44,971 nucleotides of DNA from a virus. Below the pieces are notes generated by a model that had not been told where the DNA came from, made no database searches, and was given only the letters and a program-made list of their open reading frames with translations. Below are positions 8,596-26,382 of the stretch, in pieces. The stretch lies in the IMG/VR virus record IMGVR_UViG_3300026487_000006; one strand, 5' to 3'. The position numbers and the translations under genes were made by a program. Position 1 is the stretch's first letter, and each line of letters starts with the position of its first letter.

Positions 8596-9342
8596 CTATG
8601 CCCATTATTAACTCAGCCTCAAGAAGACTTAAGCGATGACCGGTCATTGTCTGGTACGCTACCAGGTCATGCCACGTAAGCATATCTCGCGGGTATAGGC
8701 GTATACTATCATCTGTGTTGCGCTGCAAGAACTTTAATCCACGATACTTCTCAAAGGTCCCGGTAAAAATAGAGGGGCACTCTGGCCCCTTATCTTCGCT
8801 ACGCCCGGCCTCTTTAATTACGCCCATCGCGATTAGTGCCGCCTCATGCCCCGCTGATATGCTGTCGAACTTTTGTCTTTTCTGCTTATCAACGAAGGAC
8901 CAGGTGGCGTAGTCATACAGCGCAATTACTTTGCGGATAATTCTTCTCGGCTGTCTACGTGGTGCTGCGCAACAGCACCGGCCAACCCGCGATACTGGGA
9001 GAGGAGTGTCAGAAGGGCTTCTTTACTGAAGGCGTCATCGAACGACCAACCGATAACGAGTTCGGCAGAAAGTTGTTTATTCAGGTCTTCAAGCCGGTAG
9101 CCGCGTTCGTCGTTGTACTTAGCAAAATTCTCTACCGCTTCACATTCTTTTTCCAGCGGGCGTAAATCATCATCCAATTTACGAACGGCTGCCGTGTACG
9201 CGCGGCCAGCCTGTACGGCTACATCACAATCCGGGCCCAACACCTGAAGCCACTCGCCAGAATCTGCGCCCGACGGCAGCAGGATTGGCATTTTAGTGCC
9301 TTCAGCGTGACGGTCTGCGAAATAAAAATCAGTAAGTTTCAT
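8564..9342 (-). CDS. Tail assembly chaperone fusion (gpGT-like) made by a putative -1 frameshift near 8929..8932
   Basis: The -1 frame relative to G is open from about 9013 to 8564, with no in-frame ATG, GTG or TTG between 8926 and 8827 and no RBS at the 8827 ATG. The last sense codons of G read GCA-AAG-TAA, which allows tRNA-Lys to slip from AAG to AAA. Confidence 0.55.
8926..9342 (-). CDS. Tail assembly chaperone (gpG-like)
   Basis: 138-aa acidic ORF directly upstream of the tape measure region. RBS AAGGATAAGATA precedes the ATG. Confidence 0.7.
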   Translation of the reverse strand: MKLTDFYFADRHAEGTKMPILLPSGADSGEWLQVLGPDCDVAVQAGRAYTAAVRKLDDDLRPLEKECEAVENFAKYNDERGYRLEDLNKQLSAELVIGWSFDDAFSKEALLTLLSQYRGLAGAVAQHHVDSREELSAK

Positions 9343-9448
9343 TATCTTATCCTTTGGTTAACAGGTTAGTGGTTAGAGTGTTGCGCCAGCCGGGAACCAC
9401 CCGGTTTTCAGTTGCGAGCCTAGGCGCACAATTATTCTATCAAATTAC

Positions 9449-9477
9449 TTGCACATATCAAAACAATACAATAGTAT
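9449..9477 (+). promoter_or_regulatory. Sigma70-like promoter of the plus-strand cassette
   Basis: TTGCAC-17nt-TAGTAT. Overlaps the palindrome AATAC-aata-GTATT, 30 nt upstream of the 9508 ATG. Confidence 0.6.
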
Positions 9478-9490
9478 TACCTGAAATCAA
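9463..9490 (-). promoter_or_regulatory. Sigma70-like promoter facing the tail chaperone/TMP genes
   Basis: Minus strand reads TTGATT-16nt-TATTGT. The -10 is one arm of the palindrome AATACAATAGTATT (9465..9478). Confidence 0.45.
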
Positions 9491-9507
9491 CCCATGAGGA
9501 ACACCAA

Positions 9508-9852
9508 ATGAAAAACGTAATCACTGCCGTAATCCTTACTTTGTCATTCAGCGCCGGTGCGGCCACCTGCGAGAGTATTGGCAAATCTATTGTGGACCAG
9601 TACTCCGCCGCAGGCAGTTTTACTAACGACACTCCTGAGCGTAAAGCTGCTTATCTGGACCTGGTCGGCGCTCACGTTAACGCCTGCCGTGCGGGTGTTG
9701 ATGTTCGTAAGAAAGGCTTGACGCCTCAGGAGTTAGCCAAGGTCGTTGAAACAGCCTATTCAACTCCTGCCGTAGTAGATAGCTTTACGCCGGTCATATC
9801 TAAATCTATGACCATCACATCCTATACCCAGGGCTATGCATTCGGAGAATAA
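9508..9852 (+). CDS. Small secreted protein (Sec signal peptide)
   Basis: N-terminus MKNVITAVILTLSFSAGA/AT is a classic signal peptide. The mature part has two Cys. RBS GAGGA. Confidence 0.7.
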   Translation: MKNVITAVILTLSFSAGAATCESIGKSIVDQYSAAGSFTNDTPERKAAYLDLVGAHVNACRAGVDVRKKGLTPQELAKVVETAYSTPAVVDSFTPVISKSMTITSYTQGYAFGE

Positions 9853-9855
9853 ATT

Positions 9856-10056
9856 ATGGAAACTTTAGAAATACTCACAGTACCCGCGTGGTTTGACAAA
9901 AACGAAATTCCTACCAGAATCGACGACCTCGACATTATCGCTTACCTTCTCCGCCGCAATGCCTTCGATTCTGCGGATGAGGCATTCGACTGTTGCATGG
10001 GTGCTAAGAAAGTCACCTTTGAAGTAACCATTAAAATGAAAGTGGAGAATATCTAA
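9856..10056 (+). CDS. Hypothetical protein
   Basis: 66-aa ORF. RBS GGAGA, with tight spacing to its neighbours. Confidence 0.6.
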   Translation: METLEILTVPAWFDKNEIPTRIDDLDIIAYLLRRNAFDSADEAFDCCMGAKKVTFEVTIKMKVENI

Positions 10057-10265
10057 TGCCTATCAATATCGTATGTACCAAAGCTGCTGGTCGTTTCGTT
10101 AAGGGTGAAACTTACGTCGCAGCCAAAAAGACATTTGTCGAAGGTTACAGTGTCCGTCCTGTTCAATGTGAATTTTTGCAGTTTATGTTTGGCGCGCATA
10201 TGGATGACGACTTCACCGTAAAGGAAAACGATGGTACTGCGCAATTCGAGCCTGCTAAGGATTAG
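10056..10265 (+). CDS. Hypothetical protein
   Basis: 69-aa ORF. TAATG stop-start overlap with the upstream gene. Confidence 0.6.
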   Translation: MPINIVCTKAAGRFVKGETYVAAKKTFVEGYSVRPVQCEFLQFMFGAHMDDDFTVKENDGTAQFEPAKD

Positions 10266-10327
10266 CGTAGCGCGACTAACCCAATAATGGTTAAATAAGA
10301 CTCTTCCTATTTATACCGAGGCAAATA

Positions 10328-11461
10328 ATGACAGGCACATCTAAAATAACCGACGAACAGCTAAAGGAATGTCTGTCGCAAAACATGACTACCAGGGAAA
10401 TAGCGGCTAAGTATGATATGACACACCGAGTCGTTAACCTTCGTCGCGCTAAACTCGCTAAGAAAGGTTTAGGCCACGGTCGTGACGTCAGCCATATCGT
10501 GCCTGACGGGTACCGGGTTAAAGGCACCAGCGCGCTCACAGACGCGATGGGTAACATCAAGCTGCAGTGGGTTAAGACCGACGTAGACAGCGAACGACAG
10601 CTTGAGATTATGCGCGCCGTTGTAGAGGGCATGTGCTCTGAGATTGTTCCGTTGCCGTGTGTGCCCTTGTCTGAACGCCGGATTGATAAGAAGTTACTGA
10701 ACCTCTACACCGTGTCAGACTTCCACCTGGGTATGCTTAGCTGGGCTGATGAAACTGGCGCTGATTGGGACATGAAGATTGGGGAAGACTTATTCGCGCG
10801 CTGGTTCGATGCCGCGTTTCAGTCCGCACCTGACGCGGGAACAGGTGTTATTAACCTGTTAGGCGACCTGGCACACTTCGACTCACTGGACGCGGTTACA
10901 CCTGCGTCAGGCCACGTCCTCGACGCAGACACGCGCTACCAGAAGCTGGTTCGTTATATGATTCGCATGGTGCGTCGTGTCGTAGAGATGGCTCTCGTGA
11001 AGCATGAGACGGTGAAGCTGCTGGTCGTGCAAGGCAACCACGACGAATCAGGCATGATTTGGATGGCGGAGATGTTCAGCACACTCTACGACAACGAGCC
11101 GCGCGTACTGGTCGACACCTCTGCCGATGTCTACAAGATGGTGCAGCACGGCAAAACCACTCTGTTCTTCCATCACGGCCACAAAGCCAGATTCGATGCA
11201 ATTGAGCCTGTCATGATAGCTAAGTTCCGCAAAGCCTTTGGTGACAGCATCTACAGCTATGCGCACGTCGGGCACCTGCACCACCAGAAGATTGTTGAGA
11301 GTCGTAACATGATTGTTGAGCAACACCGCACTCTGGCCGCTAAAGATGCCTACGCGTCGCGCGGCGGCTGGATGAGCGGCAGAAGTGCCAACGTTATCAC
11401 CTACAGTTCAGAGTTTGGCGAAGTCGGCCGTCTGACTATTTCACCGGAGATGTTGAAATGA
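10328..11461 (+). CDS. HTH domain fused to a calcineurin-like metallophosphoesterase (SbcD/Mre11-like motif set)
   Basis: 377 aa. N-terminal TTREIAAKYDMTHRVVNLRRAKLAKKG looks like an HTH. Metallophosphoesterase motifs appear in order: SDFHLG, LGDLAHFD, QGNHDES, FHHGH, GHLHH. Confidence 0.75.
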   Translation: MTGTSKITDEQLKECLSQNMTTREIAAKYDMTHRVVNLRRAKLAKKGLGHGRDVSHIVPDGYRVKGTSALTDAMGNIKLQWVKTDVDSERQLEIMRAVVEGMCSEIVPLPCVPLSERRIDKKLLNLYTVSDFHLGMLSWADETGADWDMKIGEDLFARWFDAAFQSAPDAGTGVINLLGDLAHFDSLDAVTPASGHVLDADTRYQKLVRYMIRMVRRVVEMALVKHETVKLLVVQGNHDESGMIWMAEMFSTLYDNEPRVLVDTSADVYKMVQHGKTTLFFHHGHKARFDAIEPVMIAKFRKAFGDSIYSYAHVGHLHHQKIVESRNMIVEQHRTLAAKDAYASRGGWMSGRSANVITYSSEFGEVGRLTISPEMLK

Positions 11462-11658
11462 AATATACATATCAGCTTTACTGGCAAGGAAAGGATGATT
11501 TAGGACGGGTTATTTTCGATTCAAACACAACTGTGGAATGGGCTAACCCTGGCACTAAAGAATTGGCAGAGTTAAACGACTCACTATTGTCCTTTGCAAA
11601 GAGTAGAAATGACAATGTCGTGCGGATTGTGACGATTAATATGTGGAAGATTGGTTAA
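11458..11658 (+). CDS. Hypothetical protein
   Basis: 66-aa ORF with an ATGA overlap to the upstream gene. Last gene before the terminator. Confidence 0.55.
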   Translation: MKYTYQLYWQGKDDLGRVIFDSNTTVEWANPGTKELAELNDSLLSFAKSRNDNVVRIVTINMWKIG

Positions 11659-11665
11659 TAGAAAT

Positions 11666-11692
11666 AAGGCCCCTTTCGGGGCCTTTTCTTTT
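11666..11692. terminator. Bidirectional rho-independent terminator
   Basis: AAGGCCCC-tttc-GGGGCCTT followed by TTTCTTTT, with an A-run on the other side. Lies between convergent genes. Confidence 0.85.
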
Positions 11693-12854
11693 AGTACGCT
11701 ATACGCTGAATCACGATAGATGACTGCACCGCGTTGCCCGTGGCCTGTCCTTCCATACTCAACGTAACCGACTCAGGACCGCCAACCTCTGGCGTAGCTG
11801 CCGTTAGCTCTGCGCGCTTCAGTGTGAAGCTCATAGCGCCGTCTGGACCGGTCAGAACGGAGGTAAGTTCAATCTGCTCTTCATTCAGGAACTGTTCCAG
11901 AAGAGTCATGTCGTACAGCTTACCAGCCAGCGAGAAGGTGTTAGCCGCACGGCCACGCTCTACGAAAGCAACAGAGGAGTTACCGAGCTCGTACTGAGCA
12001 GAGGCGCTGTTATCGTTGGTGATGGTGAAGGTATCGATAAGCTGCATCTTCGCTGTACCGTTGAACGCGGCAACATCAACACTTGAGAAAGGCTGCGCAT
12101 CGAAGTTAGTGGTGAAGGTAGAACCCGCCGGCGGACCTGTCAGGATTTCCTGATTGAGACCAATGAACGGGAAGCTGCCGGTGACCATGGCGTTAACCGC
12201 TTGCTCGATGGTGAAGCCTGAGAACTCGACGCCGCGCGTAATCAGATAGCTGTCAGCGCCGCCGCAACGACCTTTGAACCAGGTCAGGATTGAGTAAGTC
12301 TTACACAGGTTACCTGTCTCCAGTTTATCCGCCACAACCAGAGCCGTAGTAGCTGCGGCTTCGTCGGTCAGGGTGTGCGGGATAGCCGCACCTGTGACGA
12401 TGAGTGAGGTAACTGCGGTAACGATAAACGGCAGCGCGTTATCTCCGGTCAGGTCCGGGAAACGGATAAGGTCGCCGACTTCGGTCGCGGTAGTGAAATC
12501 CCCAGCCGCACGGGTAAAGGTTTTAGCGTCAGCATCGACGGTGACTGACAGACCGGCGACAGTTGAGCCTGCCACCCAGGAACTGGTCATAGCGCCGGCC
12601 AGCAGTTCGTCCTGACTCTGTGCGCTGAGTTCGATAGCGTATTCGCCGGCAACCTGTTTGTTACCAGTACGGATAGACGACGTCTCGCGGCTCCCGTCCA
12701 GTTCGTTAGATACCAGAGCGTCACGGGTAATTGCAGGAATGCCGCTGGTGTTGCGCAGCGGTGACCAGCTTGGGTTAGCGGGGGTAACACCTGGGGTTGT
12801 TTCCAGCACATAGAATTGTGCGGTATTCGCGCCCTTATACGGTTGAATAGCCAT
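11691..12854 (-). CDS. Major tail (tube) protein
   Basis: The start at 12854 (MAIQPYKG) has a GAGGA RBS. 387 aa, following the tail terminator-like gene. Call is by synteny. Confidence 0.65.
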   Translation of the reverse strand: MAIQPYKGANTAQFYVLETTPGVTPANPSWSPLRNTSGIPAITRDALVSNELDGSRETSSIRTGNKQVAGEYAIELSAQSQDELLAGAMTSSWVAGSTVAGLSVTVDADAKTFTRAAGDFTTATEVGDLIRFPDLTGDNALPFIVTAVTSLIVTGAAIPHTLTDEAAATTALVVADKLETGNLCKTYSILTWFKGRCGGADSYLITRGVEFSGFTIEQAVNAMVTGSFPFIGLNQEILTGPPAGSTFTTNFDAQPFSSVDVAAFNGTAKMQLIDTFTITNDNSASAQYELGNSSVAFVERGRAANTFSLAGKLYDMTLLEQFLNEEQIELTSVLTGPDGAMSFTLKRAELTAATPEVGGPESVTLSMEGQATGNAVQSSIVIQRIAY

Positions 12855-12855
12855 T

Positions 12856-13269
12856 TTAAATCCTCGCAGTGAAGGCGATAAAATTAATTGATAAAGGGCG
12901 CTTAGCCCATCCATTTTCTACAATCAGCGGCCCCAGGCTCACGGACTGGACTTCTGCGCAGATAGCATTACGCTGAAACGTGCTTCCTGCTTTGAATGTG
13001 GTGTTTAATGAATCGGCCAGCTTATTGATTGGCGCGCTGCCTTTGGTAGAAGCAACGTTGATATCAATCTGGTAGATACCGGCTCGCTGCTCTGTAAAAC
13101 CCAGGTCAGCCTGCTCAGTATCCGCCAGTAACATATAACCGACCAGGTAGGGCGTTGCCGTGCTGGTCGGCGCATCGATGTTCTCCAGGGCGACAGCGAC
13201 GTCGTTAAGCGTTCCAAACGCCTTTAACGGAACATCAAACGCTTTTGTCAGGTCTTCGAAGTAACCCAT
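12856..13269 (-). CDS. Tail terminator protein (gpU-like role)
   Basis: 137 aa, between the gp10-like gene and the tube gene. Call is by synteny. Confidence 0.5.
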   Translation of the reverse strand: MGYFEDLTKAFDVPLKAFGTLNDVAVALENIDAPTSTATPYLVGYMLLADTEQADLGFTEQRAGIYQIDINVASTKGSAPINKLADSLNTTFKAGSTFQRNAICAEVQSVSLGPLIVENGWAKRPLSINFIAFTARI

Positions 13270-13668
13270 CTATCGCACCTTAGCCGCTTCTTCATTAATC
13301 AGTTGCTGAAATCTTAACACGTTGACTCTCACGACTCCAGTAGGGGCCTGCTTAGACCAGCCATACTCCAGACGCTGTGCATAAGGGAGGTTGTTAGTAA
13401 GAGTCAGTTCCTGCCAGACGGGTGTGTTGCCGATGAAGGTCGTTGCGCTATTCACGGCTTTGTTACCAGTAGTATCAACACCTGCAATATTACCTGACGC
13501 TGGCGTGGCCCCGGATGTCTGCCAGTTCATACGAAAGCGGCCGGTGTCAACGGGACTACCCTTGATGATTGCGCTGAATAGCTTAATCGAAACCGACCGC
13601 ATTACCGTCTCAGGGTTCTTCTTAGCCTTCTCGCAGAAAGTGCGCACATCAAGAGTGAATTTACTCAT
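13270..13668 (-). CDS. Tail completion / neck protein (HK97 gp10-like)
   Basis: 132 aa. Motifs SPVDTGRFRMNW ... NNLPYAQRLEYG resemble the HK97 gp10 family. Confidence 0.7.
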   Translation of the reverse strand: MSKFTLDVRTFCEKAKKNPETVMRSVSIKLFSAIIKGSPVDTGRFRMNWQTSGATPASGNIAGVDTTGNKAVNSATTFIGNTPVWQELTLTNNLPYAQRLEYGWSKQAPTGVVRVNVLRFQQLINEEAAKVR

Positions 13669-14024
13669 TTTCTAACCTGGATAAACCACGCGATAATGTC
13701 ATCGTTAACCATCTTGGTTTCGATGCCAACGACGGACCATCGAGCGCCTGCGAAATCAATCTTGTCTTCCATCTTCGGCAGCACGCTATAGTCCGCTTTG
13801 ACCACCATGTCGCCAGCCTGAATCGTCGTACCGTTGACCAGACCGACGTTTACCGGAACAGGCACAGAGACCAAATGAATAAGTGTATCTGACTGTGGGA
13901 TATATTCGCCCAGGTCCGCGTCCCAGACTTTACCACCAGCACGGACCAGAGTAACAGTGCTGCCGTATTTGCCAAGCAAGCGCGTTGCTACTCCCTGCAT
14001 CTTTTTGCTGAATGCGGTGCTCAT
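13665..14024 (-). CDS. Head closure / head-tail joining protein
   Basis: Start at 14024 (MSTAFSKK) via a TGATG overlap with the upstream stop. 119 aa and beta-rich. Call is by position in the neck block. Confidence 0.5.
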   Translation of the reverse strand: MSTAFSKKMQGVATRLLGKYGSTVTLVRAGGKVWDADLGEYIPQSDTLIHLVSVPVPVNVGLVNGTTIQAGDMVVKADYSVLPKMEDKIDFAGARWSVVGIETKMVNDDIIAWFIQVRK

Positions 14025-14641
14025 CAGACGGGCTCCAGGCGGGATACAACAAGGAGAGCTGAAGGCGCAGCACCCCATGCTGTAAGCGTAGTAGGGGTTA
14101 GCGGGACAAGTCCTCCCGAGTTTGTTCCTGCGCTATCGCGAATAATCTGCAATGACAGAGTTGCACCGGCAGCCACATTAATGGCTACGCGTGACTCCGT
14201 TGCAAAAATCTGGTTAGCGTTCTCTATGCGCGCAACTGAAGGGCTTCCAAAAGGGGCACCATTAACCAACAATCGGCTGAAAATTATAGAAGTACCGGTA
14301 CCACCTGTGCGTCCTAATTGCAGTTTTAATCGAACCGCATAGCTACCAGCTATGTTGAAAGTCAGTACCCCGGCAGCACTAAGCATAACGGGATTACTGG
14401 AACTGCCAGAAGCAGAACCAAATAGCACCTGATAGGCCGTGTCCACGGCTGCGGGGGCCTGAATGGCGGTACTTGAAGACCGCAGTAGTTCAACCTCTTT
14501 AACACCAGCAGCGGAGTAAAGCATGGAGTCCGCCAGTTGTGTGGTAACCTCGCGAAGTTTCTCAGGAGTAATTGCACCACTGGTATTATCAGGAAGATTG
14601 GCCCCGATAAGTGTAAACATTTCTGTTTTAGTCTTAGCCAC
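14024..14641 (-). CDS. Virion-associated hypothetical protein with a fibre-like N-terminus
   Basis: 205 aa. N-terminus ..LPDNTSGAITPEKLREVTTQLADS.. resembles the conserved N-termini of phage fibre proteins. Embedded in the neck gene block. Confidence 0.35.
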   Translation of the reverse strand: MAKTKTEMFTLIGANLPDNTSGAITPEKLREVTTQLADSMLYSAAGVKEVELLRSSSTAIQAPAAVDTAYQVLFGSASGSSSNPVMLSAAGVLTFNIAGSYAVRLKLQLGRTGGTGTSIIFSRLLVNGAPFGSPSVARIENANQIFATESRVAINVAAGATLSLQIIRDSAGTNSGGLVPLTPTTLTAWGAAPSALLVVSRLEPV

Positions 14642-14643
14642 GG

Positions 14644-15153
14644 TTAACCTCGATAAACATTAAATGAAGAACCGTTGTTACTACCACATAGCAGAGGTCG
14701 TAACGCGTCCATAGCTGCCGTGATGGTGGTAGTTGACCCGTTAGCGCCGTTGTCGAAGTACTGGACGGTCACGGCACCTTCTACACGTTCCATTGATGTT
14801 GAACGGCCATCAGATGATGCCCGCACATCAGTACCCTTACCGTATTCAACTGAGGCGATAACCTGCGCGCGGACAACCTGCGACGGGATAGTGGCGCGGG
14901 ATACGTCGAAGCCGAACAAACGGATGCCAGTGCGCGGGAATGCCATTGCCTGGGTTGGTGACACACGGCGACCACACATCGCGGGCTCCTGCAGGTCAAT
15001 GTACAACGCACCATTGCGTAACGCCGCTTCGGCTTCGTCGTCGTCCAGTGGCAGCGCCATACCAAATTTAGCGGCGAGTTCGCGCGCGTCAGTCAGGCTG
15101 ACGTAACTGTCGGCAAAAGGCACAATGCTTCCGTCTTCAACGATAAGCGCCAT
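14644..15153 (-). CDS. Head-tail adaptor (gp6/gp15-like, DnaT_2-like)
   Basis: Start MALIVEDGS.. via a TAATG overlap. ..YVSLTDARELAA..ALRNGALYID.. resembles the adaptor family. Confidence 0.55.
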   Translation of the reverse strand: MALIVEDGSIVPFADSYVSLTDARELAAKFGMALPLDDDEAEAALRNGALYIDLQEPAMCGRRVSPTQAMAFPRTGIRLFGFDVSRATIPSQVVRAQVIASVEYGKGTDVRASSDGRSTSMERVEGAVTVQYFDNGANGSTTTITAAMDALRPLLCGSNNGSSFNVYRG

Positions 15154-15419
15154 TAAACTAACTCCCAATCCTCGGCGAATAAATCACCCTGCGAAGGTGC
15201 CCAACCAGGCTGCATGATTCCTTGTGCATTTTTCAAGTCAAGGTGTGGCGCAATTATGAATTGACCAATAATACCTGCGCGAGCGTAGTCAGAACCCGGC
15301 CTAGGTTCGTCTACGACATAACCCCCCGCTTTAATTACAAATTGATTTTTACCATTCCATCCCTTCCTGGCAATTTTAGACCCGGATTTAACAAGAATCA
15401 GTGCTTCGCTAAAATCCAT
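15153..15419 (-). CDS. DUF2829-like small protein (Tad2-like candidate signal sponge)
   Basis: 88 aa. MDFSEALILVKSGSKIARKGWNGK at the N-terminus and PGWAPSQGDLFAEDWELV at the C-terminus match my recollection of the DUF2829 signature. Confidence 0.65.
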   Translation of the reverse strand: MDFSEALILVKSGSKIARKGWNGKNQFVIKAGGYVVDEPRPGSDYARAGIIGQFIIAPHLDLKNAQGIMQPGWAPSQGDLFAEDWELV

Positions 15420-15421
15420 GA

Positions 15422-15616
15422 TTACTCCTCGTCAATCGTGTTACGGCGACGGCGTTTAGGGGCTGCGCCAGCACCATTGTTATGCGCACCTTGGTCGTCA
15501 GGCTGAGTTTCGACAAGTTCTTCCGGCAACACTTCGCCGCGCTGAGGAATAACCTGGCCGTCAACAACAGTCAGACCATTATACTTTTCACGAACAACAT
15601 AATTATCGGCCATCAT
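15422..15616 (-). CDS. Hypothetical protein
   Basis: 64-aa ORF with a basic KRRRR tail. 2-nt gap to the downstream gene. Confidence 0.5.
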   Translation of the reverse strand: MMADNYVVREKYNGLTVVDGQVIPQRGEVLPEELVETQPDDQGAHNNGAGAAPKRRRRNTIDEE

Positions 15617-15629
15617 GGCTCCTTAATAA

Positions 15630-15645
15630 CGGCCCTTTCGGGCCG
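15630..15645 (-). terminator. Weak hairpin / attenuator
   Basis: CGGCCC-gaaa-GGGCCG on the minus strand, followed by TTATTAA. Confidence 0.35.
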
Positions 15646-15650
15646 CGGGG

Positions 15651-16001
15651 TTAAGCAGTTACGGTAACAGTGGTCGCGCCGGAAATGATGTTACCGTAGT
15701 CGTCATTAACAACGACTTTGTAGACACCCGCATCCGCCGCGGCAGCACTGGCTTTGGTATAGGTCAGAGCCGTAGCGCCGGCAATGGCGTTACCGTCTTT
15801 GTACCACTGTACTTTATAAGGCTGCGCGCCGCCAGTAACAGCGACAGTCAGCGTCAGTGTTGCACCAGTAGCAACTGACTTAGTCGCAGGCAGTGCGGTA
15901 GAGAAAGAGGCGGGAGAAATGTTCTCCATAACAACTTCTACCTGACCGTCGTCGTTCGCGTCATCCAGACCGGTGGTGCGGCGTTTGATTACATCAACCA
16001 T
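15651..16001 (-). CDS. Ig-like domain decoration protein
   Basis: 116 aa. ..TLTLTVAVTGGAQPYKVQWYKDGNAI..AGVYKVVVND.. is an I-set-like Ig signature. Confidence 0.7.
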   Translation of the reverse strand: MVDVIKRRTTGLDDANDDGQVEVVMENISPASFSTALPATKSVATGATLTLTVAVTGGAQPYKVQWYKDGNAIAGATALTYTKASAAAADAGVYKVVVNDDYGNIISGATTVTVTA

Positions 16002-16015
16002 TTTTAAATCCTCAA

Positions 16016-16288
16016 TTAAGGTGTAATGATGCCAGCGCTGCGTAATTTAGCCAGCAGGGCATTAAATTCGGCCATAGTGGGTGCAGCGGCAGAATCAGTT
16101 TGTGCAGCCTGCAGAAGCACACCGCCACGCTGCGTAGTGGTAGGAGTTTTATTCCCGGCCATCGCGGTCGTTGCCGTGGTGCCTACAGTCGGTGTGAACG
16201 TACTCGGTTTACCTGTTACATCAGCCCATGCGGCACTGATTTTAGCGTCTTTCAGACTGCGCGGCAGCCCTTTACCTGTGGTAGCCAT
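16016..16288 (-). CDS. Head fibre / decoration-like protein
   Basis: 90 aa. Thr/Ala-rich with a C-terminal ..EFNALLAKLRSAGIITP, a motif I associate with head-fibre-type proteins. Immediately downstream of the capsid gene. Confidence 0.5.
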   Translation of the reverse strand: MATTGKGLPRSLKDAKISAAWADVTGKPSTFTPTVGTTATTAMAGNKTPTTTQRGGVLLQAAQTDSAAAPTMAEFNALLAKLRSAGIITP

Positions 16289-16312
16289 ACATATTTCTCC
16301 TGTATGAATGTG

Positions 16313-16334
16313 AAAAGAGGGGCCGTAGCCCCTC
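16313..16334 (-). terminator. Rho-independent terminator/attenuator after the capsid gene
   Basis: Minus strand reads GAGGGGC-tacg-GCCCCTC followed by TTTTC. Confidence 0.7.
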
Positions 16335-16352
16335 CCGCATTATACGCTACCG

Positions 16353-17402
16353 TTACGCGCCGACGCCAGTAACCAGGAACGCGATAGGAATATGCTTACG
16401 CTCCATTACGCGGTTCCAGTTGGAGGCGTTCGCCAGGTCCTGCCATGAGGCGGAGCGTGCGATAGTCTCACTGCCGTTGCCGGTGATTACCGCGCTGGTG
16501 AAGCTGTAGCCAAGTGGGTGCAGCAGCCAGGTTTTACGGGTCCACAGCACTTCGACGCCGCCGCCGTTACCGCGCTCAGGAGAGCGGTCATATTCCAGTG
16601 GCACAGTTGGCGAGCCTTCGCCGTAGCCAATTGCACCCTGACCAAAGATGATGCTGATGAACTTACGGTCAGCACCAGTACCAACTACAGTCATGCTGTC
16701 GTCGACAACCACACGGTAACCCTGGTATGTGGCGAACATGGTGTTGTTGTCTGCGTCACGCACGAAATCAATCAACTGCTGCTTACGAGCCTGTGCGTAC
16801 ACGAAGCTGTGCATCGCAATAGCACCGAGCGTTTCGCCAGTAGAACCCATCAGCGCATCGCCCATAGTCTGGGTTGCGTCGATGAATGCGCCAGCGTCAA
16901 AGCCCAGGGTGGCTGACACGTCAATAACCATGTCGTTCTGGGTGTGGAAAGCATCAGTCGCAGCAACGTTGTCGTTGTACAGGCCGAGAGCGGTCGCCAG
17001 CAGACGACGCTGTGCCTGACGCTGCCAGAAGTTATCCAGACGGTTAGCCACAGATTGCAGTGGGTTCTGGCTGGTCAGCTCAACAGTCAGGTCGGCCTGG
17101 CCGAAGCCTTCGTTCAGGTACGCAACGCGCGCCATCATATCGCCGGTCTGGACGTTACGCGGAGTCGCGATATCCTGGAACACGTCATTCGAGTAGTTAG
17201 GCTCGATTGAAGTATCAATTGCCTTCCAGTAAGGAATGTTGGCGATATTAGAAGAACCGCGAGCAATCTCGGCAGCGTACTGTGACGGCGTCAGGATACC
17301 TGACTGGAAGAACGCAGTTTTCTCAACCGGCTCTTCTGTCATATAAGACAGGATGACGGGTTCGTTACCTGTTACGATATCGCCAATAGTGGTAATAGCC
17401 AT
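16353..17402 (-). CDS. Major capsid protein
   Basis: 349 aa, directly after the scaffold gene and followed by a terminator. Call is by size and synteny. Confidence 0.8.
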   Translation of the reverse strand: MAITTIGDIVTGNEPVILSYMTEEPVEKTAFFQSGILTPSQYAAEIARGSSNIANIPYWKAIDTSIEPNYSNDVFQDIATPRNVQTGDMMARVAYLNEGFGQADLTVELTSQNPLQSVANRLDNFWQRQAQRRLLATALGLYNDNVAATDAFHTQNDMVIDVSATLGFDAGAFIDATQTMGDALMGSTGETLGAIAMHSFVYAQARKQQLIDFVRDADNNTMFATYQGYRVVVDDSMTVVGTGADRKFISIIFGQGAIGYGEGSPTVPLEYDRSPERGNGGGVEVLWTRKTWLLHPLGYSFTSAVITGNGSETIARSASWQDLANASNWNRVMERKHIPIAFLVTGVGA

Positions 17403-17404
17403 GT

Positions 17405-18097
17405 TTATTTCTTCCTCTGGGCTTCAAGTTGCCGTTTAAATTCGGCCGGGTCAGATTTGCTGAACGCGATGCGCTCGGCGTCATTCATTTCATTTAACGT
17501 CTTCGCGGCCCCGCCGCCTTTACCACCGGAAGCCCCGCCGCCGGATGCTGCATTAGCCTTAATAAGGTGGCTGAATGCTTTGTGTTCACGCAGATACTTG
17601 CGGAACTGTTCCGGGTCCGTAGTAATAACGCTGCCGTCTGTACCGACGAACTTCGTTACCACTTCGTCCCCTTCAAACTCTGTGCGTACGAAAGGTGCTA
17701 CCAGGTCAACTGTTTCCGGCGTAATGAAGTCACCGATGAACGAACCCAGTACCGCCTTACGCTCGCTACCAAGCACGCGAGATGCCAGGGTAGTATAACG
17801 CTCATCTTTCTCTTTCAGTACCGGTTCATACTGGCTACGAATCGTCTTTTCGAACTCGTCCATCTTGCCTGCGGACTTCAGCGCCTCCTGATGCTCGCGC
17901 TGACGTGCCTCTTCGGCTTCCTTCGCCCGGCGTGCCGCTTCCTTCTTCTCAGTCAGCAGCGCCTCATTATTGGCCTTCAGACCGGCAACCAGCTCGGCAA
18001 CTTCCCGTTCGGTGTAGGTCTTCGGCGCGTCTCCACCTGCTGGTTTGTCTGCTTCGCCTGCTTCTTCGTGAAGCGGATAACGTAAAAAACGATTCAT
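17405..18097 (-). CDS. Scaffolding protein
   Basis: 230 aa. Highly charged Glu/Lys/Ala coiled-coil, immediately upstream of the capsid gene. Confidence 0.75.
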   Translation of the reverse strand: MNRFLRYPLHEEAGEADKPAGGDAPKTYTEREVAELVAGLKANNEALLTEKKEAARRAKEAEEARQREHQEALKSAGKMDEFEKTIRSQYEPVLKEKDERYTTLASRVLGSERKAVLGSFIGDFITPETVDLVAPFVRTEFEGDEVVTKFVGTDGSVITTDPEQFRKYLREHKAFSHLIKANAASGGGASGGKGGGAAKTLNEMNDAERIAFSKSDPAEFKRQLEAQRKK

Positions 18098-18189
18098 AGT
18101 CAGTATGTCCCCTGGACGTCAGTAGCCGGGCCACCCGGTTTTACACTGTCAAGAATAAAAGAATATCGCGCGCTATGCAACTTTTGTGG

Positions 18190-18219
18190 TTGACAGTTTA
18201 CATAATACTGTCGTATTGT
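18190..18219 (+). promoter_or_regulatory. Sigma70-like promoter
   Basis: TTGACA-18nt-TATTGT. Contains the palindrome AATAC-tgtc-GTATT (18204..18217). Confidence 0.65.
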
Positions 18220-18256
18220 TCAGTCATTGAAACGAAACAGCTACCGGAGCAGAAAA

Positions 18257-18409
18257 ATGGAAAACAAAGTTAAAGCATTACTCATCAAATGGGGCAACAA
18301 CCAGGACGATGTTGAAGCAATGATGTCCAAATGGTTCGAAGTAGTCTACAACGGCAATAAAGATGAATCAGCACGATACATCGCCAATATGATTCGGACA
18401 GCATGGTAA
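18257..18409 (+). CDS. Hypothetical protein
   Basis: 50 aa starting from the ATG with a GGAG RBS. The longer track ORF would need a non-ATG start. Confidence 0.55.
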   Translation: MENKVKALLIKWGNNQDDVEAMMSKWFEVVYNGNKDESARYIANMIRTAW

Positions 18410-18615
18410 TGGAAATAACAGAAGTCTCTATTAGTAAAATCAAGGTGGGTGACACGGTCATCCACCACGGCCAACAAAGAACGGTTTGTATTCGCGCCTT
18501 CGGGTACGACCCGTTTGTCGGTGTTCTTTTGTGGGGCGACAGCTACAACATGGGAAACACAAAAGTTAAAAAGATTACTTTCCCGCGATGGTATAAAGGC
18601 GTACGTTATGATTAA
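18403..18615 (+). CDS. Hypothetical protein
   Basis: 70-aa ORF. An alternative start at 18409 forms a TAATG overlap with the upstream stop. Confidence 0.55.
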   Translation: MVMEITEVSISKIKVGDTVIHHGQQRTVCIRAFGYDPFVGVLLWGDSYNMGNTKVKKITFPRWYKGVRYD

Positions 18616-18617
18616 AG

Positions 18618-18637
18618 AAGCCCCTTACGGGGCTTTT
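18618..18637. terminator. Bidirectional rho-independent terminator
   Basis: AAGCCCC-ttac-GGGGCTT followed by TTTAT. Lies between convergent genes. Confidence 0.8.
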
Positions 18638-18638
18638 A

Positions 18639-18884
18639 TCATTCTGTTGTAACGTTCCTTACCCAGTCCTGCAACCGGTACACTTTCAGCCTGTTCTGGC
18701 GCACACAATCCGAGTTCTGCACATCAATAGCCAGGTCCTCATCAGCATCAGCGGCCGGTGCGCTTAACTTACACGGTGCCACCATCAGCGATGCATCGAC
18801 AGGCGGCAGCTGTTGCGCCGGCGGAACGTACTCAGACGAGCAGCCTGTCAGAAACACCACACCCGCCAGAATCAGTTTATTCAT
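18639..18884 (-). CDS. Rz1: o-spanin (outer-membrane lipoprotein)
   Basis: Start MNKLILAGVVFLTGC carries a lipobox (LTGC). The start overlaps the last 8 nt of the i-spanin gene. Confidence 0.85.
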   Translation of the reverse strand: MNKLILAGVVFLTGCSSEYVPPAQQLPPVDASLMVAPCKLSAPAADADEDLAIDVQNSDCVRQNRLKVYRLQDWVRNVTTE

Positions 18885-19233
18885 GGTCGTAGCCTTCAAT
18901 GTTATTCGCATTTTCAACAGCGCGGCGTTTCAGTTCAACACGCTTAGGGTCGAACTCGCATTTAGTCCGGCCAGGCGTCTGGATGTACTTAACCACCTCC
19001 TGCGTAATGGTAACGGTACGAGCTGCGCCTTTGGTGTCGGCGGCGGCGGCCTTCGTGTCGTTTTGTTGTTGCCGTGTGATTTGCTTTTCCAGTCGCGCGG
19101 CGGCTTTCGTCTTTTGTTGCTGGACTAAGTCCTGTCGTCCGGCGTCCCAGGCACGGTGGTATTGCCACTGGCCCCAGAGAAAGGTCGTCAGTACTGCGGC
19201 CGATACAACTGCCAGAATAATTCTCAGATTCAT
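18877..19233 (-). CDS. Rz: i-spanin
   Basis: 118 aa from MNLRIILAVVSAAVLTTFLWG (N-terminal TM helix), followed by a Gln/Lys/Ala coiled-coil. RBS GGTGGGAG. Confidence 0.85.
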   Translation of the reverse strand: MNLRIILAVVSAAVLTTFLWGQWQYHRAWDAGRQDLVQQQKTKAAARLEKQITRQQQNDTKAAAADTKGAARTVTITQEVVKYIQTPGRTKCEFDPKRVELKRRAVENANNIEGYDHE

Positions 19234-19618
19234 TGTGTCTCCCACCTCTGCGTATAAGTGGGGAGAAGCCTAAGCGTATCCCCACCCCGATACTATTACG
19301 GCAACACACTTTTAATCTTATAGTTGCCGTAAGTCATTGAAGGGACTGGTTGTCCGTTCCTGTCCGCTGTGATTCATCGAAGATGAATAGATTATCCCCG
19401 ATGTCTGTTTGACCGGTGCTGGCGTACGACGCTTAACGCTACAGGGGCTGTTCGGCCTTACGGCCCGCCCCTAGCGTCTCGCTGCGCCCCTGTGGGGCGA
19501 CGCGTGACTTCAGTGCTGTTAGGTCAAGGGCATTATACAAATATGTGTCAAGCTTTTCATAACTCATAATTTAGATAGATTCTTACTGCTTTACCAGTTT
19601 TTCCGGTTAAGGAAATGG

Positions 19619-19647
19619 TTTACAGCTTAATATTAGTGTTGTATTAT
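19619..19647 (+). promoter_or_regulatory. Sigma70-like promoter
   Basis: TTTACA-17nt-TATTAT. The spacer carries the 11-mer TAGTGTTGTAT. Confidence 0.6.
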
Positions 19648-19680
19648 TAGTCCCTCGAAACAACAAAAGAGGAAAGCACT

Positions 19681-19983
19681 ATGGGACAGAAGACACTTTT
19701 AAAAAGCGACGTTAACAAACTACTCCAATTAATTGCTGACCGGGAGTGGGCTGAGCATTTTGCGGAAAGTGATTTAGGACGGAACCTGGAGAGCGCCGTG
19801 ACAGACTTACATAATGAAATATCAGAATTGCAGGATAAGGTCTCCGAACTCCAGGCAAAGCTCGATAATCAACCTGTTGTGGATTTACCTTACAGCGACG
19901 CAATTCGACTTCACGGCAATATGATGTACAGCGATGCCGTAGTCACCGCCTTACAGAAGGCCGGGGTTAAATATAAGTGGTGA
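19681..19983 (+). CDS. Coiled-coil hypothetical protein (paralogue family)
   Basis: 100 aa. RBS AGAGGAAAG. C-terminus QPVVDLPYSD..YSDAVVTALQKAGVKY parallels the 20809 ORF. Confidence 0.65.
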   Translation: MGQKTLLKSDVNKLLQLIADREWAEHFAESDLGRNLESAVTDLHNEISELQDKVSELQAKLDNQPVVDLPYSDAIRLHGNMMYSDAVVTALQKAGVKYKW

Positions 19984-20011
19984 TGTCTTATGGAAACGAG
20001 AGGACCTAAGC

Positions 20012-20161
20012 ATGACATCCTGGCACACAAGTTACTTTATCGATGCCGCGCGTATCGCCCACTATCAGGGCCTGCGTCGGCGGCGCAACGGCAACCCGGC
20101 GCTCGCTTACCAGTCGTTCGCGGAGCGCGACTACTTTATTAAAATGGCAAGAGGAAACTGA
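20012..20161 (+). CDS. Small hypothetical protein (49 aa)
   Basis: Below the 60-aa limit of the ORF track. RBS GAGAGGA lies 7 nt upstream, and the stop is 1 nt from the next ATG. Confidence 0.45.
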   Translation: MTSWHTSYFIDAARIAHYQGLRRRRNGNPALAYQSFAERDYFIKMARGN

Positions 20162-20162
20162 G

Positions 20163-20597
20163 ATGAGTGAAGTTAAGCGTTGGAATGTTGAGAGTGATGA
20201 GCAGGACGGTCCTTGTTCATTATGGAACGTTGAAAGTGCAGAAGGTGAGTTTGTTGAATACGAAGACTACGCCGCCCTCAAAGCAGAGCGTGAAGCGTTG
20301 GCGGTGGAGTGCGCACAGTATAAATCTCTGGCAGAAAGGTTTGCAGAAAGAGCGGATGACTATAAATCAGGACATTTTGGCTACTCGGTCTTTGATAGCT
20401 CAAATGAATTTAAGCAGCACATTAAAACCCCAGCCACCGACGCCTACCTCAACTCTGTGCGGGCTGATGCAATATTTGAAGCAGCCAGCTTAATTGCTGC
20501 TCAGATATGGGAAGAGGACGAAGGGCAAGGTATGGTTGCCGCTATTGACGCGCTTGCAATCATTGAGCAAAAAGTCCGCGCAGGAGAGCCATTATGA
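20163..20597 (+). CDS. Hypothetical protein, Ead/Ea22-like architecture
   Basis: 144 aa from MSEVKRW (RBS AGGAAAC). The Arg-rich upstream extension in the track lacks an RBS. Confidence 0.6.
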   Translation: MSEVKRWNVESDEQDGPCSLWNVESAEGEFVEYEDYAALKAEREALAVECAQYKSLAERFAERADDYKSGHFGYSVFDSSNEFKQHIKTPATDAYLNSVRADAIFEAASLIAAQIWEEDEGQGMVAAIDALAIIEQKVRAGEPL

Positions 20598-20803
20598 AAG
20601 ACTTAACAGTAGACGCATCAATGATTACATTCCATAGTTCTCAGGCTGAGCCTGAGTTCAGATTTATTTTTATACCGCCTGGTTTAGATAAAGGCATTTA
20701 TTTTGTTGGTGGCGACGTGCCCGAATTAGGTGATTCAGTCGATATCGTCTGCGTTAAAAACGACGATGGCGGCCTAGTTCTTCAGTTCAAAACACGGAGG
20801 TAG
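20594..20803 (+). CDS. Hypothetical protein
   Basis: 69 aa with an ATGA overlap. Confidence 0.6.
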   Translation: MKDLTVDASMITFHSSQAEPEFRFIFIPPGLDKGIYFVGGDVPELGDSVDIVCVKNDDGGLVLQFKTRR

Positions 20804-20808
20804 CCATC

Positions 20809-21081
20809 ATGACAAACGAAGAGAAGCATGCCCTGATTGAGCACTGCAAAGAAGAAATCGAAAATCTAAAATGGAGGATGGATCGAACAATAGCCACGCA
20901 GGGTAACGTGGCATACCTTATTAGTTGCCTTAAGAGGCAGGAAATCGCACTCGCCGCACTGACCGCACAGCCGGTTAAGCTGCCTGATGTTCAGGTGGAC
21001 AATCCAATTGATGGATTCTTTTACAGGTGTGATGAGGTTATCGCAGCTATCCGTATGGCAGGCTACGAGGTACAGGAATAA
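20809..21081 (+). CDS. Coiled-coil hypothetical protein (paralogue of the 19681 ORF)
   Basis: 90 aa. RBS GGAGG. C-terminus QPVKLPD..FYRCDEVIAAIRMAGYEV. Confidence 0.65.
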   Translation: MTNEEKHALIEHCKEEIENLKWRMDRTIATQGNVAYLISCLKRQEIALAALTAQPVKLPDVQVDNPIDGFFYRCDEVIAAIRMAGYEVQE

Positions 21082-21590
21082 TGAAAGAGCTGAATGAGTT
21101 AGTTGCTATTGCCGAACGTGCCGATGCATACGGCAACTTAATGAATGCTAATCCGCATAAAATTCTTGCCATTGCCGAAGCATTCCGTGAGCTGGAGCAG
21201 CGCGCAGAAGCAGCAGAAGCGAAGCTGGAAACAGAAAATAAATGGCGTGACCTCGCTTTGCAGTTTGATGGACATCGGATGCAGGCAATTTCCCTACTAA
21301 AAATGATTGTAAATGACGCGCCAGAAAAACAGTTCACATCGGTGCGCAACTTTTTAAAATGCGGCCCGTTATCCGGCGAGGAGGTGATGAATGAGCGTTT
21401 GCTTGTCATTGCTAATTCCCGACCCGCGCCCGCCATAAGCCTGGCGGAGCTGGTGCCGGATGAGTGCGAGCCTCACCAGTCTGGACTTTATGGATGCAAG
21501 CTAGACATGAGGCTTAAAACACCGGACTGGGCAGAAGGGTTCAGCGCCTGTCGCGCCGCCATCCTGCGTAACATTGAGGAAGCGAAATAA
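21081..21590 (+). CDS. Hypothetical protein, Ead/Ea22-like architecture
   Basis: 169 aa with a TAATG overlap and an N-terminal coiled-coil. Confidence 0.6.
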   Translation: MKELNELVAIAERADAYGNLMNANPHKILAIAEAFRELEQRAEAAEAKLETENKWRDLALQFDGHRMQAISLLKMIVNDAPEKQFTSVRNFLKCGPLSGEEVMNERLLVIANSRPAPAISLAELVPDECEPHQSGLYGCKLDMRLKTPDWAEGFSACRAAILRNIEEAK

Positions 21591-21592
21591 TT

Positions 21593-22081: not shown

Positions 22082-22082
22082 A

Positions 22083-24625: not shown

Positions 24626-24632
24626 GATGTCC

Positions 24633-26362: not shown

Positions 26363-26382
26363 TATAAATCTCCTGATTGCAC

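What the first reader, a model, noticed from the sequence alone, without database searches (positions are those of the whole stretch)
15153..15419. DUF2829/Tad2-like small protein translationally coupled inside the neck gene block
The 88-aa ORF starts MDFSEALILVKSGSKIARKGWNGK and ends PGWAPSQGDLFAEDWELV. This matches the DUF2829 pattern as I recall it (N-terminal F-x-x-A-L-x-x-L/V-K-x-G-x-K-I/V-x-R-x-G-W and C-terminal W-x-P-S-Q-x-D-L-x-A-x-D-W-E). The Thoeris anti-defence protein Tad2, which sequesters the cyclic ADP-ribose signal, was described as a DUF2829-family protein. Here the gene shares a TAATG stop-start with the head-tail adaptor gene, so it would be made late and in quantity. That timing is unexpected for an anti-defence factor, unless the protein is packaged or acts on late abortive-infection signalling.
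Basis: partly seen in the sequence, partly recalled or inferred. Interest (0 to 1): 0.65.

Follow-up and report, generated by a model that had tools for sequence, protein, structure and literature searches.

The report
Tad2 immune-signal sponge gene in phage neck operon
A small phage gene sitting between head and neck genes is a genuine member of the known Tad2 family, whose proteins soak up bacterial alarm molecules. The protein itself is ordinary, but related phages repeatedly carry such genes in this late structural block rather than among early genes.

Summary
An 88-aa ORF at 15153..15419 on the minus strand matches Pfam PF11195 (Tad2-like) over its full length (E=4.6e-23, 82 bits against a cutoff of 25). 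The AlphaFold2 model has pLDDT 95.9, and its only significant PDB matches are the 24 Tad2 chains. The core pocket residues W21, N22, W73, S76 and D79 are conserved. The adenine-contacting Thr of SPO1 Tad2 is Gly here, so the ligand is uncertain.

The gene overlaps the Ad1 head-tail adaptor gene by TAATG. It is a clean 266-nt insertion relative to the closest cultured relative, Pantoea phage AH01, and has lower GC than its flanks (44.9% against 52%).

Its nearest homologues (77-95% identity) all lie between the major capsid gene and the adaptor gene in related siphophage contigs. One such contig carries two Tad2 genes plus an Acb2/Tad1-hairpin gene in the same late block. The gene is under purifying selection (dN/dS 0.03-0.17). 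Homologues at 78-80% identity in podophages lie in non-structural regions, so a virion role is unlikely.

"Made in quantity" is not shown. Two terminator-like hairpins lie upstream, and no promoter-like site precedes the gene.

Verdict: a new member of a known family in an under-noticed late-operon context.

The parts
15153..15419 (-). Tad2-like (PF11195) coding sequence, 88 aa
   Evidence: Pfam 82 bits. AlphaFold2 pLDDT 95.9. The top 24 Foldseek PDB hits are all Tad2 structures.
15151..15155 (-). TAATG: the Tad2 stop codon overlaps the adaptor start codon by 1 nt
   Evidence: The same overlap type occurs at the homologous junctions in L010, L011 and L004.
15425..15430 (-). GAGGAG Shine-Dalgarno sequence inside the 3' end of the upstream 64-aa gene, 5 nt before the Tad2 ATG. 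In AH01 the same element serves the adaptor GTG.
   Evidence: Junction comparison.
15162..15166 (-). GGGAG Shine-Dalgarno-like sequence formed by the conserved D-W-E codons of Tad2, 8 nt before the adaptor ATG
   Evidence: GATTGGGAG is conserved in window, L010, L011 and L004.
14644..15153 (-). Head-tail adaptor Ad1 gene, downstream and translationally coupled
   Evidence: phrog_477, E=1.7e-54. 94.7% aa identity to AH01 gene 33.
15422..15616 (-). Conserved 64-aa gene of unknown function (phrog_4451), immediately upstream
   Evidence: It is adjacent to the adaptor gene in AH01, Bas74 and PhiSTP1.
15629..15646 (-). GC-rich hairpin (GCGGCCC-GAAA-GGGCCGU) between the Hoc-like gene and the 64-aa gene
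   Evidence: -22.7 kcal/mol for the 66-nt stretch, z=-2.4.
16312..16335 (-). Terminator-like hairpin plus UUUU just after the major capsid gene
   Evidence: GAGGGGC-UACG-GCCCCUC followed by UUUU, z=-3.4.
16353..17402 (-). Major head protein gene, upstream in the same gene string
   Evidence: phrog_247, E=8.7e-118.
11666..11685 (.). Bidirectional terminator-like hairpin after the tail tube gene, the likely end of the scaffold-to-tube transcription unit

Best explanation
The ORF encodes a Tad2-family signal sponge. By homology it should form a small soluble homotetramer that binds and sequesters a nucleotide-derived immune second messenger, which blocks the effector of a signalling defence system in the infected cell. 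The messenger is most likely a TIR-made ADP-ribose derivative of a Thoeris system.

In this phage the gene is an accessory cassette placed exactly at the adaptor start codon. It has no promoter-like site of its own. It would therefore be transcribed by read-through of the scaffold-to-tail-tube unit and translated from the strong SD that formerly served the adaptor gene. It then hands ribosomes to the adaptor gene through TAATG and an SD built from its own D-W-E codons.

Shown: family membership, fold, conserved pocket core, the insertion anatomy, purifying selection, and recurrence of this placement in relatives.

Inferred: tetramer formation, ligand binding, anti-defence activity, and co-expression with head and neck genes. 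Also inferred is the idea that co-production with capsid proteins is useful because capsid proteins are known Thoeris triggers.
For: Family and fold:
- Pfam PF11195, 82 bits, full length.
- phmmer against the PDB hits only Tad2 proteins: SPO1 Gp34.65 (2e-10), ModTad2, SptTad2 and HgmTad2/AcrIIA7.
- The AF2 model has pLDDT 95.9. Foldseek gives 24 significant hits, all Tad2, with TM 0.62-0.76; the next hit has E>1.
- The pocket residues of SPO1 Tad2 (W25, N26, W73, S76, D79; paper 10.1101/2023.05.01.538930) and the mutated HgmTad2 residues W21/N22 and S90/D93 (PMC10680739) correspond to W21, N22, W73, S76 and D79, which are invariant in the clade.

Insertion and selection:
- Clean insertion relative to AH01, with lower GC.
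- dN/dS is 0.03-0.17. The protein is at least as conserved as the neighbouring structural genes.

Context:
- The same MCP-to-adaptor interval holds this Tad2 clade in seven other homologue clusters, P0001-P0004, P0006, P0008 and P0020. It holds a second Tad2 clade and, nearby, an Acb2/Tad1-hairpin gene in L004.
- Homologues at 78-80% identity lie in replication or regulatory clusters of Kuravirus and Murrayvirus, which fits a soluble accessory factor.
- A Thoeris system is triggered by the major head protein (PMC12578639).
Against: - The position of SPO1 T78 / HgmTad2 T92, which gives the one direct H-bond to adenine, is Gly in this whole clade.
- Other adenine-side residues differ in the pairwise alignment (I63->L, T65->N, D67->Q, H71->P).
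- Family members bind different ligands (3'cADPR, His-ADPR, N7-cADPR, cUMP/cCMP, cyclic dinucleotides), and about a quarter of tested sponges inhibited none of seven systems (PMC12393519).
- Sponges act stoichiometrically and the field expects early accumulation. Two hairpins upstream may limit the mRNA level.
- No transcript data exist for this phage.
Confidence: 0.75

Rival explanations
1. It is a Tad2-fold sponge whose real target is not a Thoeris signal. The target would be a Pycsar cyclic mononucleotide, a CBASS cyclic dinucleotide or an undiscovered signal, possibly bound in the second (intradimer) pocket.
For: MoTad2 binds cUMP/cCMP, and HgmTad2 and SptTad2 bind cGG and 3'3'-cGAMP, at a second site (PMC12393519, PMC10680739). 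SPO1 F44, which occludes that site (10.1101/2024.01.03.573942), aligns with P39 here (this is a low-confidence loop region). The clade has Gly at SPO1 T78.
Against: The canonical ADPR-pocket core (W21, N22, W73, S76, D79) is invariant, which argues that this pocket is in use. The beta2-beta5 insert is short: the W21-to-W73 spacing is 52 residues, against 48 in SPO1 and about 66 in HgmTad2, whose long insert builds the dinucleotide pocket (PMC10680739).
Confidence: 0.12
2. It is a structural or assembly factor of the head-neck junction that happens to share the DUF2829 fold.
For: It lies between capsid and adaptor genes and is translationally coupled to the adaptor. Many distant homologues lie next to MuF/minor head, portal, terminase or scaffold genes. 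There is a weak Foldseek match to a phage 812 neck chain (E=1.1, TM 0.45).
Against: It is absent from AH01, Bas74 and PhiSTP1, which otherwise have the same module. Homologues at 78-80% identity lie in non-structural clusters of podophages and in prophages. Its position inside the interval varies between three sites. The neck match is not significant.
Confidence: 0.03
3. It is an anti-CRISPR of the AcrIIA7 type.
For: AcrIIA7 is a DUF2829 protein and is among the PDB hits (8kbi at 8.4e-9, 9kzr). One phage record annotates a homologue as 'anti-CRISPR protein' (H117).
Against: The Acr activity of AcrIIA7/HgmTad2 and other Tad2 homologues could not be reproduced in vitro or in vivo (PMC10680739). 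Type II-A Cas9 systems are, from general knowledge, not typical of Erwiniaceae or Enterobacteriaceae hosts.
Confidence: 0.02
4. It is a neutral or selfish passenger with no present function, tolerated because it does not break the operon.
For: It is a compact cassette with lower GC than its flanks. The same site holds an unrelated 50-aa Cys-rich ORF in other relatives.
Against: dN/dS is 0.03-0.17 with saturated synonymous divergence. Conservation is equal to or above that of capsid and adaptor proteins. Pocket residues are invariant.
Confidence: 0.03

Closest known systems
SPO1 Tad2 (Gp34.65; PDB 8SME/8SMF/8SMG/8WJE)
   Same: Single PF11195 domain of about 89 aa. Same fold (Foldseek probability 1.0, TM about 0.65-0.70). 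Pocket residues W25, N26, W73, S76 and D79 are conserved as W21, N22, W73, S76 and D79. The insert between beta2 and beta5 is short.
   Different: Only about 32-35% identity. T78 (adenine H-bond) is Gly. I63, T65, D67 and H71 are replaced by L, N, Q and P. F44 is not conserved. The host phage is a siphophage of Gram-negative bacteria, and the gene lies in the head-neck block.
ModTad2 / MoTad2 (PDB 9EIB, 8V3E), a His-ADPR and cUMP/cCMP sponge
   Same: It is the best Foldseek hit (E=6.9e-7, TM 0.72), has the same length (88 aa) and the same W-N ... W-x-P-S-x-x-D framework.
   Different: 33% identity. Its motif is PSVSD against PSQGD here. Whether the window protein shares its type II Thoeris or Pycsar specificity is unknown.
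HgmTad2 (AcrIIA7; PDB 8KBI-8KBM, 8WJC) and SptTad2 (8WJD)
   Same: Same core fold and gcADPR pocket (W21/N22, S90/T92/D93).
   Different: They carry a roughly 41-residue insert that forms the cyclic-dinucleotide pocket. The window protein has the short form.
Uncharacterised Tad2 homologues of Kuravirus phages (Bas86-88, EK010) and Murrayvirus phages (IME_EC2, sortsyn)
   Same: 68-80% aa identity and the same PSQGDLFA(E/D)DW motif.
   Different: They are the last gene of replication or regulatory gene clusters, not of a structural block.
DUF2829 gene P7 of Bacillus phage BceA1 and relatives (phi4J1, Waukesha92, SpaA1)
   Same: A Tad2-like gene embedded in the morphogenesis module, with a 1-nt overlap with the preceding MuF-like head gene.
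   Different: About 42% identity. It lies at a different site (between the MuF and scaffold genes) in a different phage lineage.
Classical morons of lambdoid phages
   Same: An accessory gene inserted between two structural genes that are adjacent in relatives, with deviating GC.
   Different: There is no own promoter or terminator. It relies on operon read-through and translational coupling.

Membership tests
Tad2 (PF11195 / DUF2829) sponge family | Significant full-length match to the PF11195 profile | tested here: met
   E=4.6e-23, 82 bits against a cutoff of 25, profile positions 1-73 of 73.
Tad2 (PF11195 / DUF2829) sponge family | Tad2 fold: N-terminal helix, antiparallel beta-sheet and short helices in the loops | tested here: met
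   AF2 pLDDT 95.9, with elements H3-11, six to seven strands, H44-47 and H77-81. All 24 significant Foldseek PDB hits are Tad2.
Tad2 (PF11195 / DUF2829) sponge family | Conserved ligand-pocket core (SPO1 W25, N26, W73, S76, D79; HgmTad2 W21/N22, S90/D93) | tested here: met
   W21, N22, W73, S76 and D79 are present and invariant in 47 relatives.
Tad2 (PF11195 / DUF2829) sponge family | Adenine-side contacts of the 3'cADPR binders (SPO1 T78, I63, T65; HgmTad2 T92) | tested here: not met
   G78, L and N stand at the aligned positions. This bears on ligand specificity, not on family membership, because ModTad2 also differs (PSVSD).
Tad2 (PF11195 / DUF2829) sponge family | Homotetramer with two inter-dimer pockets | not testable with these tools
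   Only monomer prediction is available.
Tad2 (PF11195 / DUF2829) sponge family | Binds and sequesters, without degrading, an immune signalling nucleotide and rescues phage from the cognate defence | not testable with these tools
   This needs binding assays and plaque assays.
Long-insert, cyclic-dinucleotide-binding Tad2 subgroup (HgmTad2/SptTad2/SaTad2) | An insert of about 40 residues between beta2 and beta5 that forms the dinucleotide pocket | tested here: not met
   88 aa in total. The W21-W73 spacing is 52 residues, against 48 in SPO1 and about 66 in HgmTad2 (PMC10680739).
Moron (autonomous accessory transcription unit in a late operon) | Own promoter and terminator flanking the inserted gene | tested here: not met
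   There is no promoter-like site between the capsid gene and the ORF. The insert is 266 nt of pure coding sequence.

The most novel reading that the evidence does not exclude
In this siphophage group (Guernseyvirinae and relatives) the capsid-to-adaptor interval may be a dedicated landing site for signal-sponge genes. Its cargo includes two Tad2 clades, with an Acb2/Tad1-hairpin gene nearby. Sponge placement there, and next to MuF, portal or terminase genes in many other phages, may be selected because it couples sponge production in time and dose to the capsid proteins that trigger TIR and CD-NTase sensors. A less likely version is that the sponge is loaded into capsids and delivered with the DNA.
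Probability: 0.25. Interest if true: 0.6.

Novelty: new member of a known kind. Interest (0 to 1): 0.42.

Why it matters
Sponge proteins act stoichiometrically, so when and how much they are made matters. The published expectation is early expression. This window and its relatives show a strongly conserved Tad2 clade that sits in the head-neck block without a promoter-like site of its own. A rough sample suggests that many distant Tad2 genes also sit beside head or packaging genes. Capsid proteins have since been shown to trigger a Thoeris system. Together these points give a concrete, testable case for trigger-coupled counter-defence. The case also flags an untested enterobacterial Tad2 clade (PSQGD motif) whose ligand may differ from 3'cADPR.

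Tried and rejected
- Own promoter. The sigma-70 scan of 9000-27000 gave 19 sites against 15.2 +/- 3.8 expected. None lies upstream of the ORF, and two weak 9/12 sites lie inside it. An autonomous moron was therefore rejected.
- Structural role. The phage 812 neck match is insignificant and the gene is absent from the closest relatives, so this was rejected.
- Other anti-defence genes in the window. Pfam scans of 19 ORFs lacking AH01 homologues found none; the hits were only DUF7265, DUF7336 and a collagen-repeat protein.
- Cultured Guernseyvirinae with a Tad2 gene. None was seen among the best hits. The best tblastn hits with either Tad2 type were Kuravirus, Murrayvirus, Pasteurella phages and others. 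Weaker hits were not all inspected.
- Neighbour census by PHROG scan of 126 neighbours. It was too diffuse to quantify (151 families), so a smaller, biased sample of large neighbours was used instead.
- Supplementary tables of the sponge-diversity paper, to find tested close homologues. They are not held.
- Literature linking DUF2829/Tad2 with a structural-module or late location, or with Guernseyvirinae. None was found.
- Polarity of the indel (gain here or loss in AH01). This could not be settled. Lower GC and the exact start-codon junction favour gain.

Full report
1. The observation

The minus strand carries an 88-aa ORF at 15153..15419. Its TAA (15155..15153) overlaps the ATG (15153..15151) of the next gene, giving TAATG. 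That next gene is a head-tail adaptor Ad1 (phrog_477, E=1.7e-54). The preceding 64-aa gene (phrog_4451) stops 2 nt before the ORF's ATG. The neighbours are a standard siphophage head-neck string:
- scaffold
- major head protein (phrog_247)
- head fibre
- Hoc-like decoration
- the 64-aa protein
- this ORF
- Ad1 adaptor
- a 205-aa protein
- head closure
- tail completion
- tail terminator
- tail tube

hmmscan gives PF11195 'Tad2-like' at E=4.6e-23, 82 bits (gathering cutoff 25), covering the whole profile.

2. What the protein is

phmmer against all PDB sequences returns only Tad2 proteins. These are SPO1 Gp34.65 (2e-10), ModTad2, SptTad2, and HgmTad2 (deposited as AcrIIA7). An AlphaFold2 model built on 47 homologues has mean pLDDT 95.9. 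Foldseek against the PDB gives 24 significant hits, all of them Tad2 chains (probability 1.0, TM 0.62-0.76). The next hit has E>1.

The SPO1 Tad2 paper names the residues that hold 1''-3' gcADPR. W25, W73, N26 and D79 are the main contacts. S76, H71 and D67 coordinate water. T78, I63 and T65 contact adenine (10.1101/2023.05.01.538930). In HgmTad2 the mutated pocket residues are W21/N22 and S90/T92/D93 (PMC10680739).

By the pairwise alignment the window protein has W21, N22, W73, S76 and D79. These are invariant in the 47-sequence alignment. However, G78 replaces the Thr, and L, N, Q and P replace I63, T65, D67 and H71. The whole enterobacterial clade carries W-x-P-S-Q-G-D-L-F-A-E-D-W.

The protein is the short form. 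The W21-W73 spacing is 52 residues, compared with 48 in SPO1. It lacks the roughly 41-residue insert with which HgmTad2 and SptTad2 bind cyclic dinucleotides (PMC10680739).

Tad2 proteins differ in their ligands: 3'cADPR, His-ADPR, N7-cADPR, cUMP/cCMP or cyclic dinucleotides. About a quarter of tested sponges inhibited none of seven systems (PMC12393519). Family membership is therefore secure, but the ligand is not.

3. What the phage is, and the insertion

The window has an exact 127-bp terminal overlap, so it is a circularly permuted complete genome of 44,844 bp. It is collinear with Pantoea phage AH01 (Guernseyvirinae), at about 89% nt identity over most of the head-neck query stretch and 69-99% over the other aligned blocks.

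In AH01 the 64-aa gene and the adaptor gene are 3 nt apart. The same holds in Kagunavirus Bas74 and Cornellvirus PhiSTP1. The two junctions compare as follows:
- AH01: GACGAGGAGTAA-GCC-GTGGCGCTT
- window: GACGAGGAGTAA-TC-ATGGAT...GATTGGGAGTTAGTTTA-ATGGCGCTT

In the closer relative L010 the spacer is still GCC, and the Tad2 ATG occupies the place of the adaptor GTG. The cassette is therefore 266 nt of pure coding sequence placed exactly at the adaptor start codon.

The GAGGAG Shine-Dalgarno that serves the adaptor in AH01 now lies 5 nt before the Tad2 ATG. The adaptor gets an ATG plus a GGGAG formed by the conserved D-W-E codons of Tad2, 8 nt upstream.

The insert has 44.9% GC, against 52-54% in the flanks. 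In all related contigs the Tad2 gene is also lower in GC than its locus. I favour gain over loss, but the polarity is not proven.

4. Relatives and contexts

The protein database holds no identical copy. The nearest clusters are at 95%, 90%, 84%, 83%, 83%, 80% and 77% identity. Every one of those that I looked up lies between the major capsid gene and the Ad1 adaptor gene of a related siphophage contig. Three placements occur:
- Directly before the adaptor: L010, L011-14 and L104.
- Before the small gene that precedes the adaptor: L099-L103 and L107-108.
- Directly after the capsid gene: L004-L009.

Some of these phages have a different capsid family (PF20036) and only 38% capsid identity to the window, yet 80% Tad2 identity.

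In L004, L007 and L009 the pre-adaptor site holds a second, SPO1-like Tad2. It is 84 aa, has the SQTD motif, scores 89 bits on PF11195 and is 46% identical to gp34.65. L004 and L008 also carry an Acb2/Tad1-hairpin gene (73 bits) just upstream of the scaffold gene. In L005, L006 and L008 the same pre-adaptor site holds an unrelated 50-aa Cys-rich ORF. All these cargo genes overlap the adaptor start.

Selection is purifying. dN/dS is 0.03-0.17, and synonymous sites are saturated between lineages. The protein is conserved as well as or better than its structural neighbours.

Outside this group, homologues at 68-80% identity lie at the end of replication or regulatory clusters in Kuravirus phages (Bas86-88, EK010) and Murrayvirus phages (IME_EC2, sortsyn). 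They also occur in prophages, near the terminase genes. This argues against a virion role.

5. Expression

No sigma-70-like site lies upstream of the ORF, and the scan as a whole is at chance level (19 sites against 15.2 +/- 3.8). A terminator-like hairpin with a U-run follows the capsid gene (16312..16335, z=-3.4). A second GC-rich hairpin follows the Hoc-like gene (15629..15646, z=-2.4). A strong bidirectional hairpin follows the tail tube gene (11666..11685).

The gene is therefore most likely read as part of the scaffold-to-tube transcript, downstream of two possible attenuators. Its mRNA level would be that of the neck genes, although its SD is strong. 'Late' is a reasonable inference. 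'In quantity' is not shown. In the only Kagunavirus time-course found, structural genes fall in a broad middle class that peaks at 30-100 min (PMC12645636).

6. How unusual the placement is

The discoverers expected sponges to accumulate early (10.1101/2023.05.01.538930), and engineered phages use early promoters (PMC12393519). Even so, deposited Bacillus and Staphylococcus siphophages (BceA1, phi4J1, Waukesha92, SpaA1) carry a DUF2829 gene between the MuF-like head gene and the scaffold gene, with a 1-nt overlap.

I also sampled 18 IMG/VR Tad2 loci that have large neighbouring ORFs. This sample is biased. Nine have a head or packaging neighbour (minor head/MuF, portal, large terminase, scaffold). 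Seven have a DNA-metabolism, sigma-factor or auxiliary-metabolic neighbour.

I found no paper that comments on this pattern. A staphylococcal Thoeris system is activated by the major head protein (PMC12578639), and tail fibre alleles set type II Thoeris sensitivity in Migulavirinae (10.64898/2026.06.04.730250). Producing a sponge together with the trigger is therefore a plausible rationale. It is an inference only.

7. Rivals

- A non-Thoeris ligand is a real possibility (0.12).
- A structural role, anti-CRISPR activity and a functionless passenger are each unlikely, for the reasons given in the structured fields.
- The AcrIIA7 activity could not be reproduced by others (PMC10680739).

8. Verdict

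The protein is a new member of a known family. The ligand is open because of the Gly at the adenine-contact position.

The interesting part is contextual. A promoterless, translationally coupled sponge cassette sits at the adaptor start codon. Its nearest homologues recur in the same capsid-to-adaptor interval across diverged siphophages, sometimes together with a second Tad2 and an Acb2-like gene.

Interest is moderate (0.42). The trigger-coupled or hot-spot reading has perhaps a 0.25 probability and would merit about 0.6.

Noticed in passing
window 1-127 and 44845-44971: There is an exact 127-bp terminal overlap. The window is a circularly permuted complete phage genome of 44,844 bp, and the tailspike gene runs across the window ends.
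   Followed up: yes
L004 1905-2141, 4001-4270, 5152-5406 (also L007, L008, L009): A related metagenomic siphophage contig carries three sponge-family genes in its late block. An Acb2/Tad1-hairpin gene lies before the scaffold gene, one Tad2 lies after the capsid gene, and a second SPO1-like Tad2 lies before the adaptor gene.
   Followed up: partly
L005 5152-5304, L006 5152-5304, L008 5152-5304: The same pre-adaptor site holds an unrelated 50-aa Cys-rich ORF (zinc-ribbon-like CxH...CxxC) with no Pfam hit. It also overlaps the adaptor start.
   Followed up: partly
L018 (Bacillus phage BceA1) 3084-4273; IMG/VR loci L028, L031, L090, L091: Tad2-like genes repeatedly lie immediately downstream of MuF-like minor head / head morphogenesis genes, with a 1-nt overlap in BceA1. 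I found no paper mentioning this.
   Followed up: partly
window 11666-11685 and 21593-21612: Two bidirectional terminator-like hairpins share the same stem (AAGGCCCC-N4-GGGGCCTT) and bound the convergent gene blocks.
   Followed up: no
window 24633-25868 (-): The large terminase is only 38% identical to that of AH01, while the adjacent portal (93%) and small terminase (84%) are close. This looks like a mosaic replacement of the packaging enzyme.
   Followed up: no
window 22083-23126 (-): The MuF-like minor capsid protein is 347 aa, against 619 aa in AH01 gene 20. Only the N-terminal roughly 244 aa match, so AH01 carries an extra C-terminal part that is missing here.
   Followed up: no
window 26928-27839 (+): A 303-aa protein with collagen triple-helix repeats (PF01391, E=1.1e-26) has no AH01 counterpart. 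It is preceded by a DUF7265 protein at 26545-26928.
   Followed up: no
window 15222-15506 (+): A 94-aa antisense ORF overlaps the Tad2 gene. It has no AH01 match and was not otherwise tested for homology. It is most likely not a gene, but it can mislead length-based gene callers.
   Followed up: partly
L107 7971-8147, L108 6477-6653: Relatives carry a superinfection-immunity family gene (PF14373) on the opposite strand just after the tail tube gene. This is another accessory slot in the late region.
   Followed up: no
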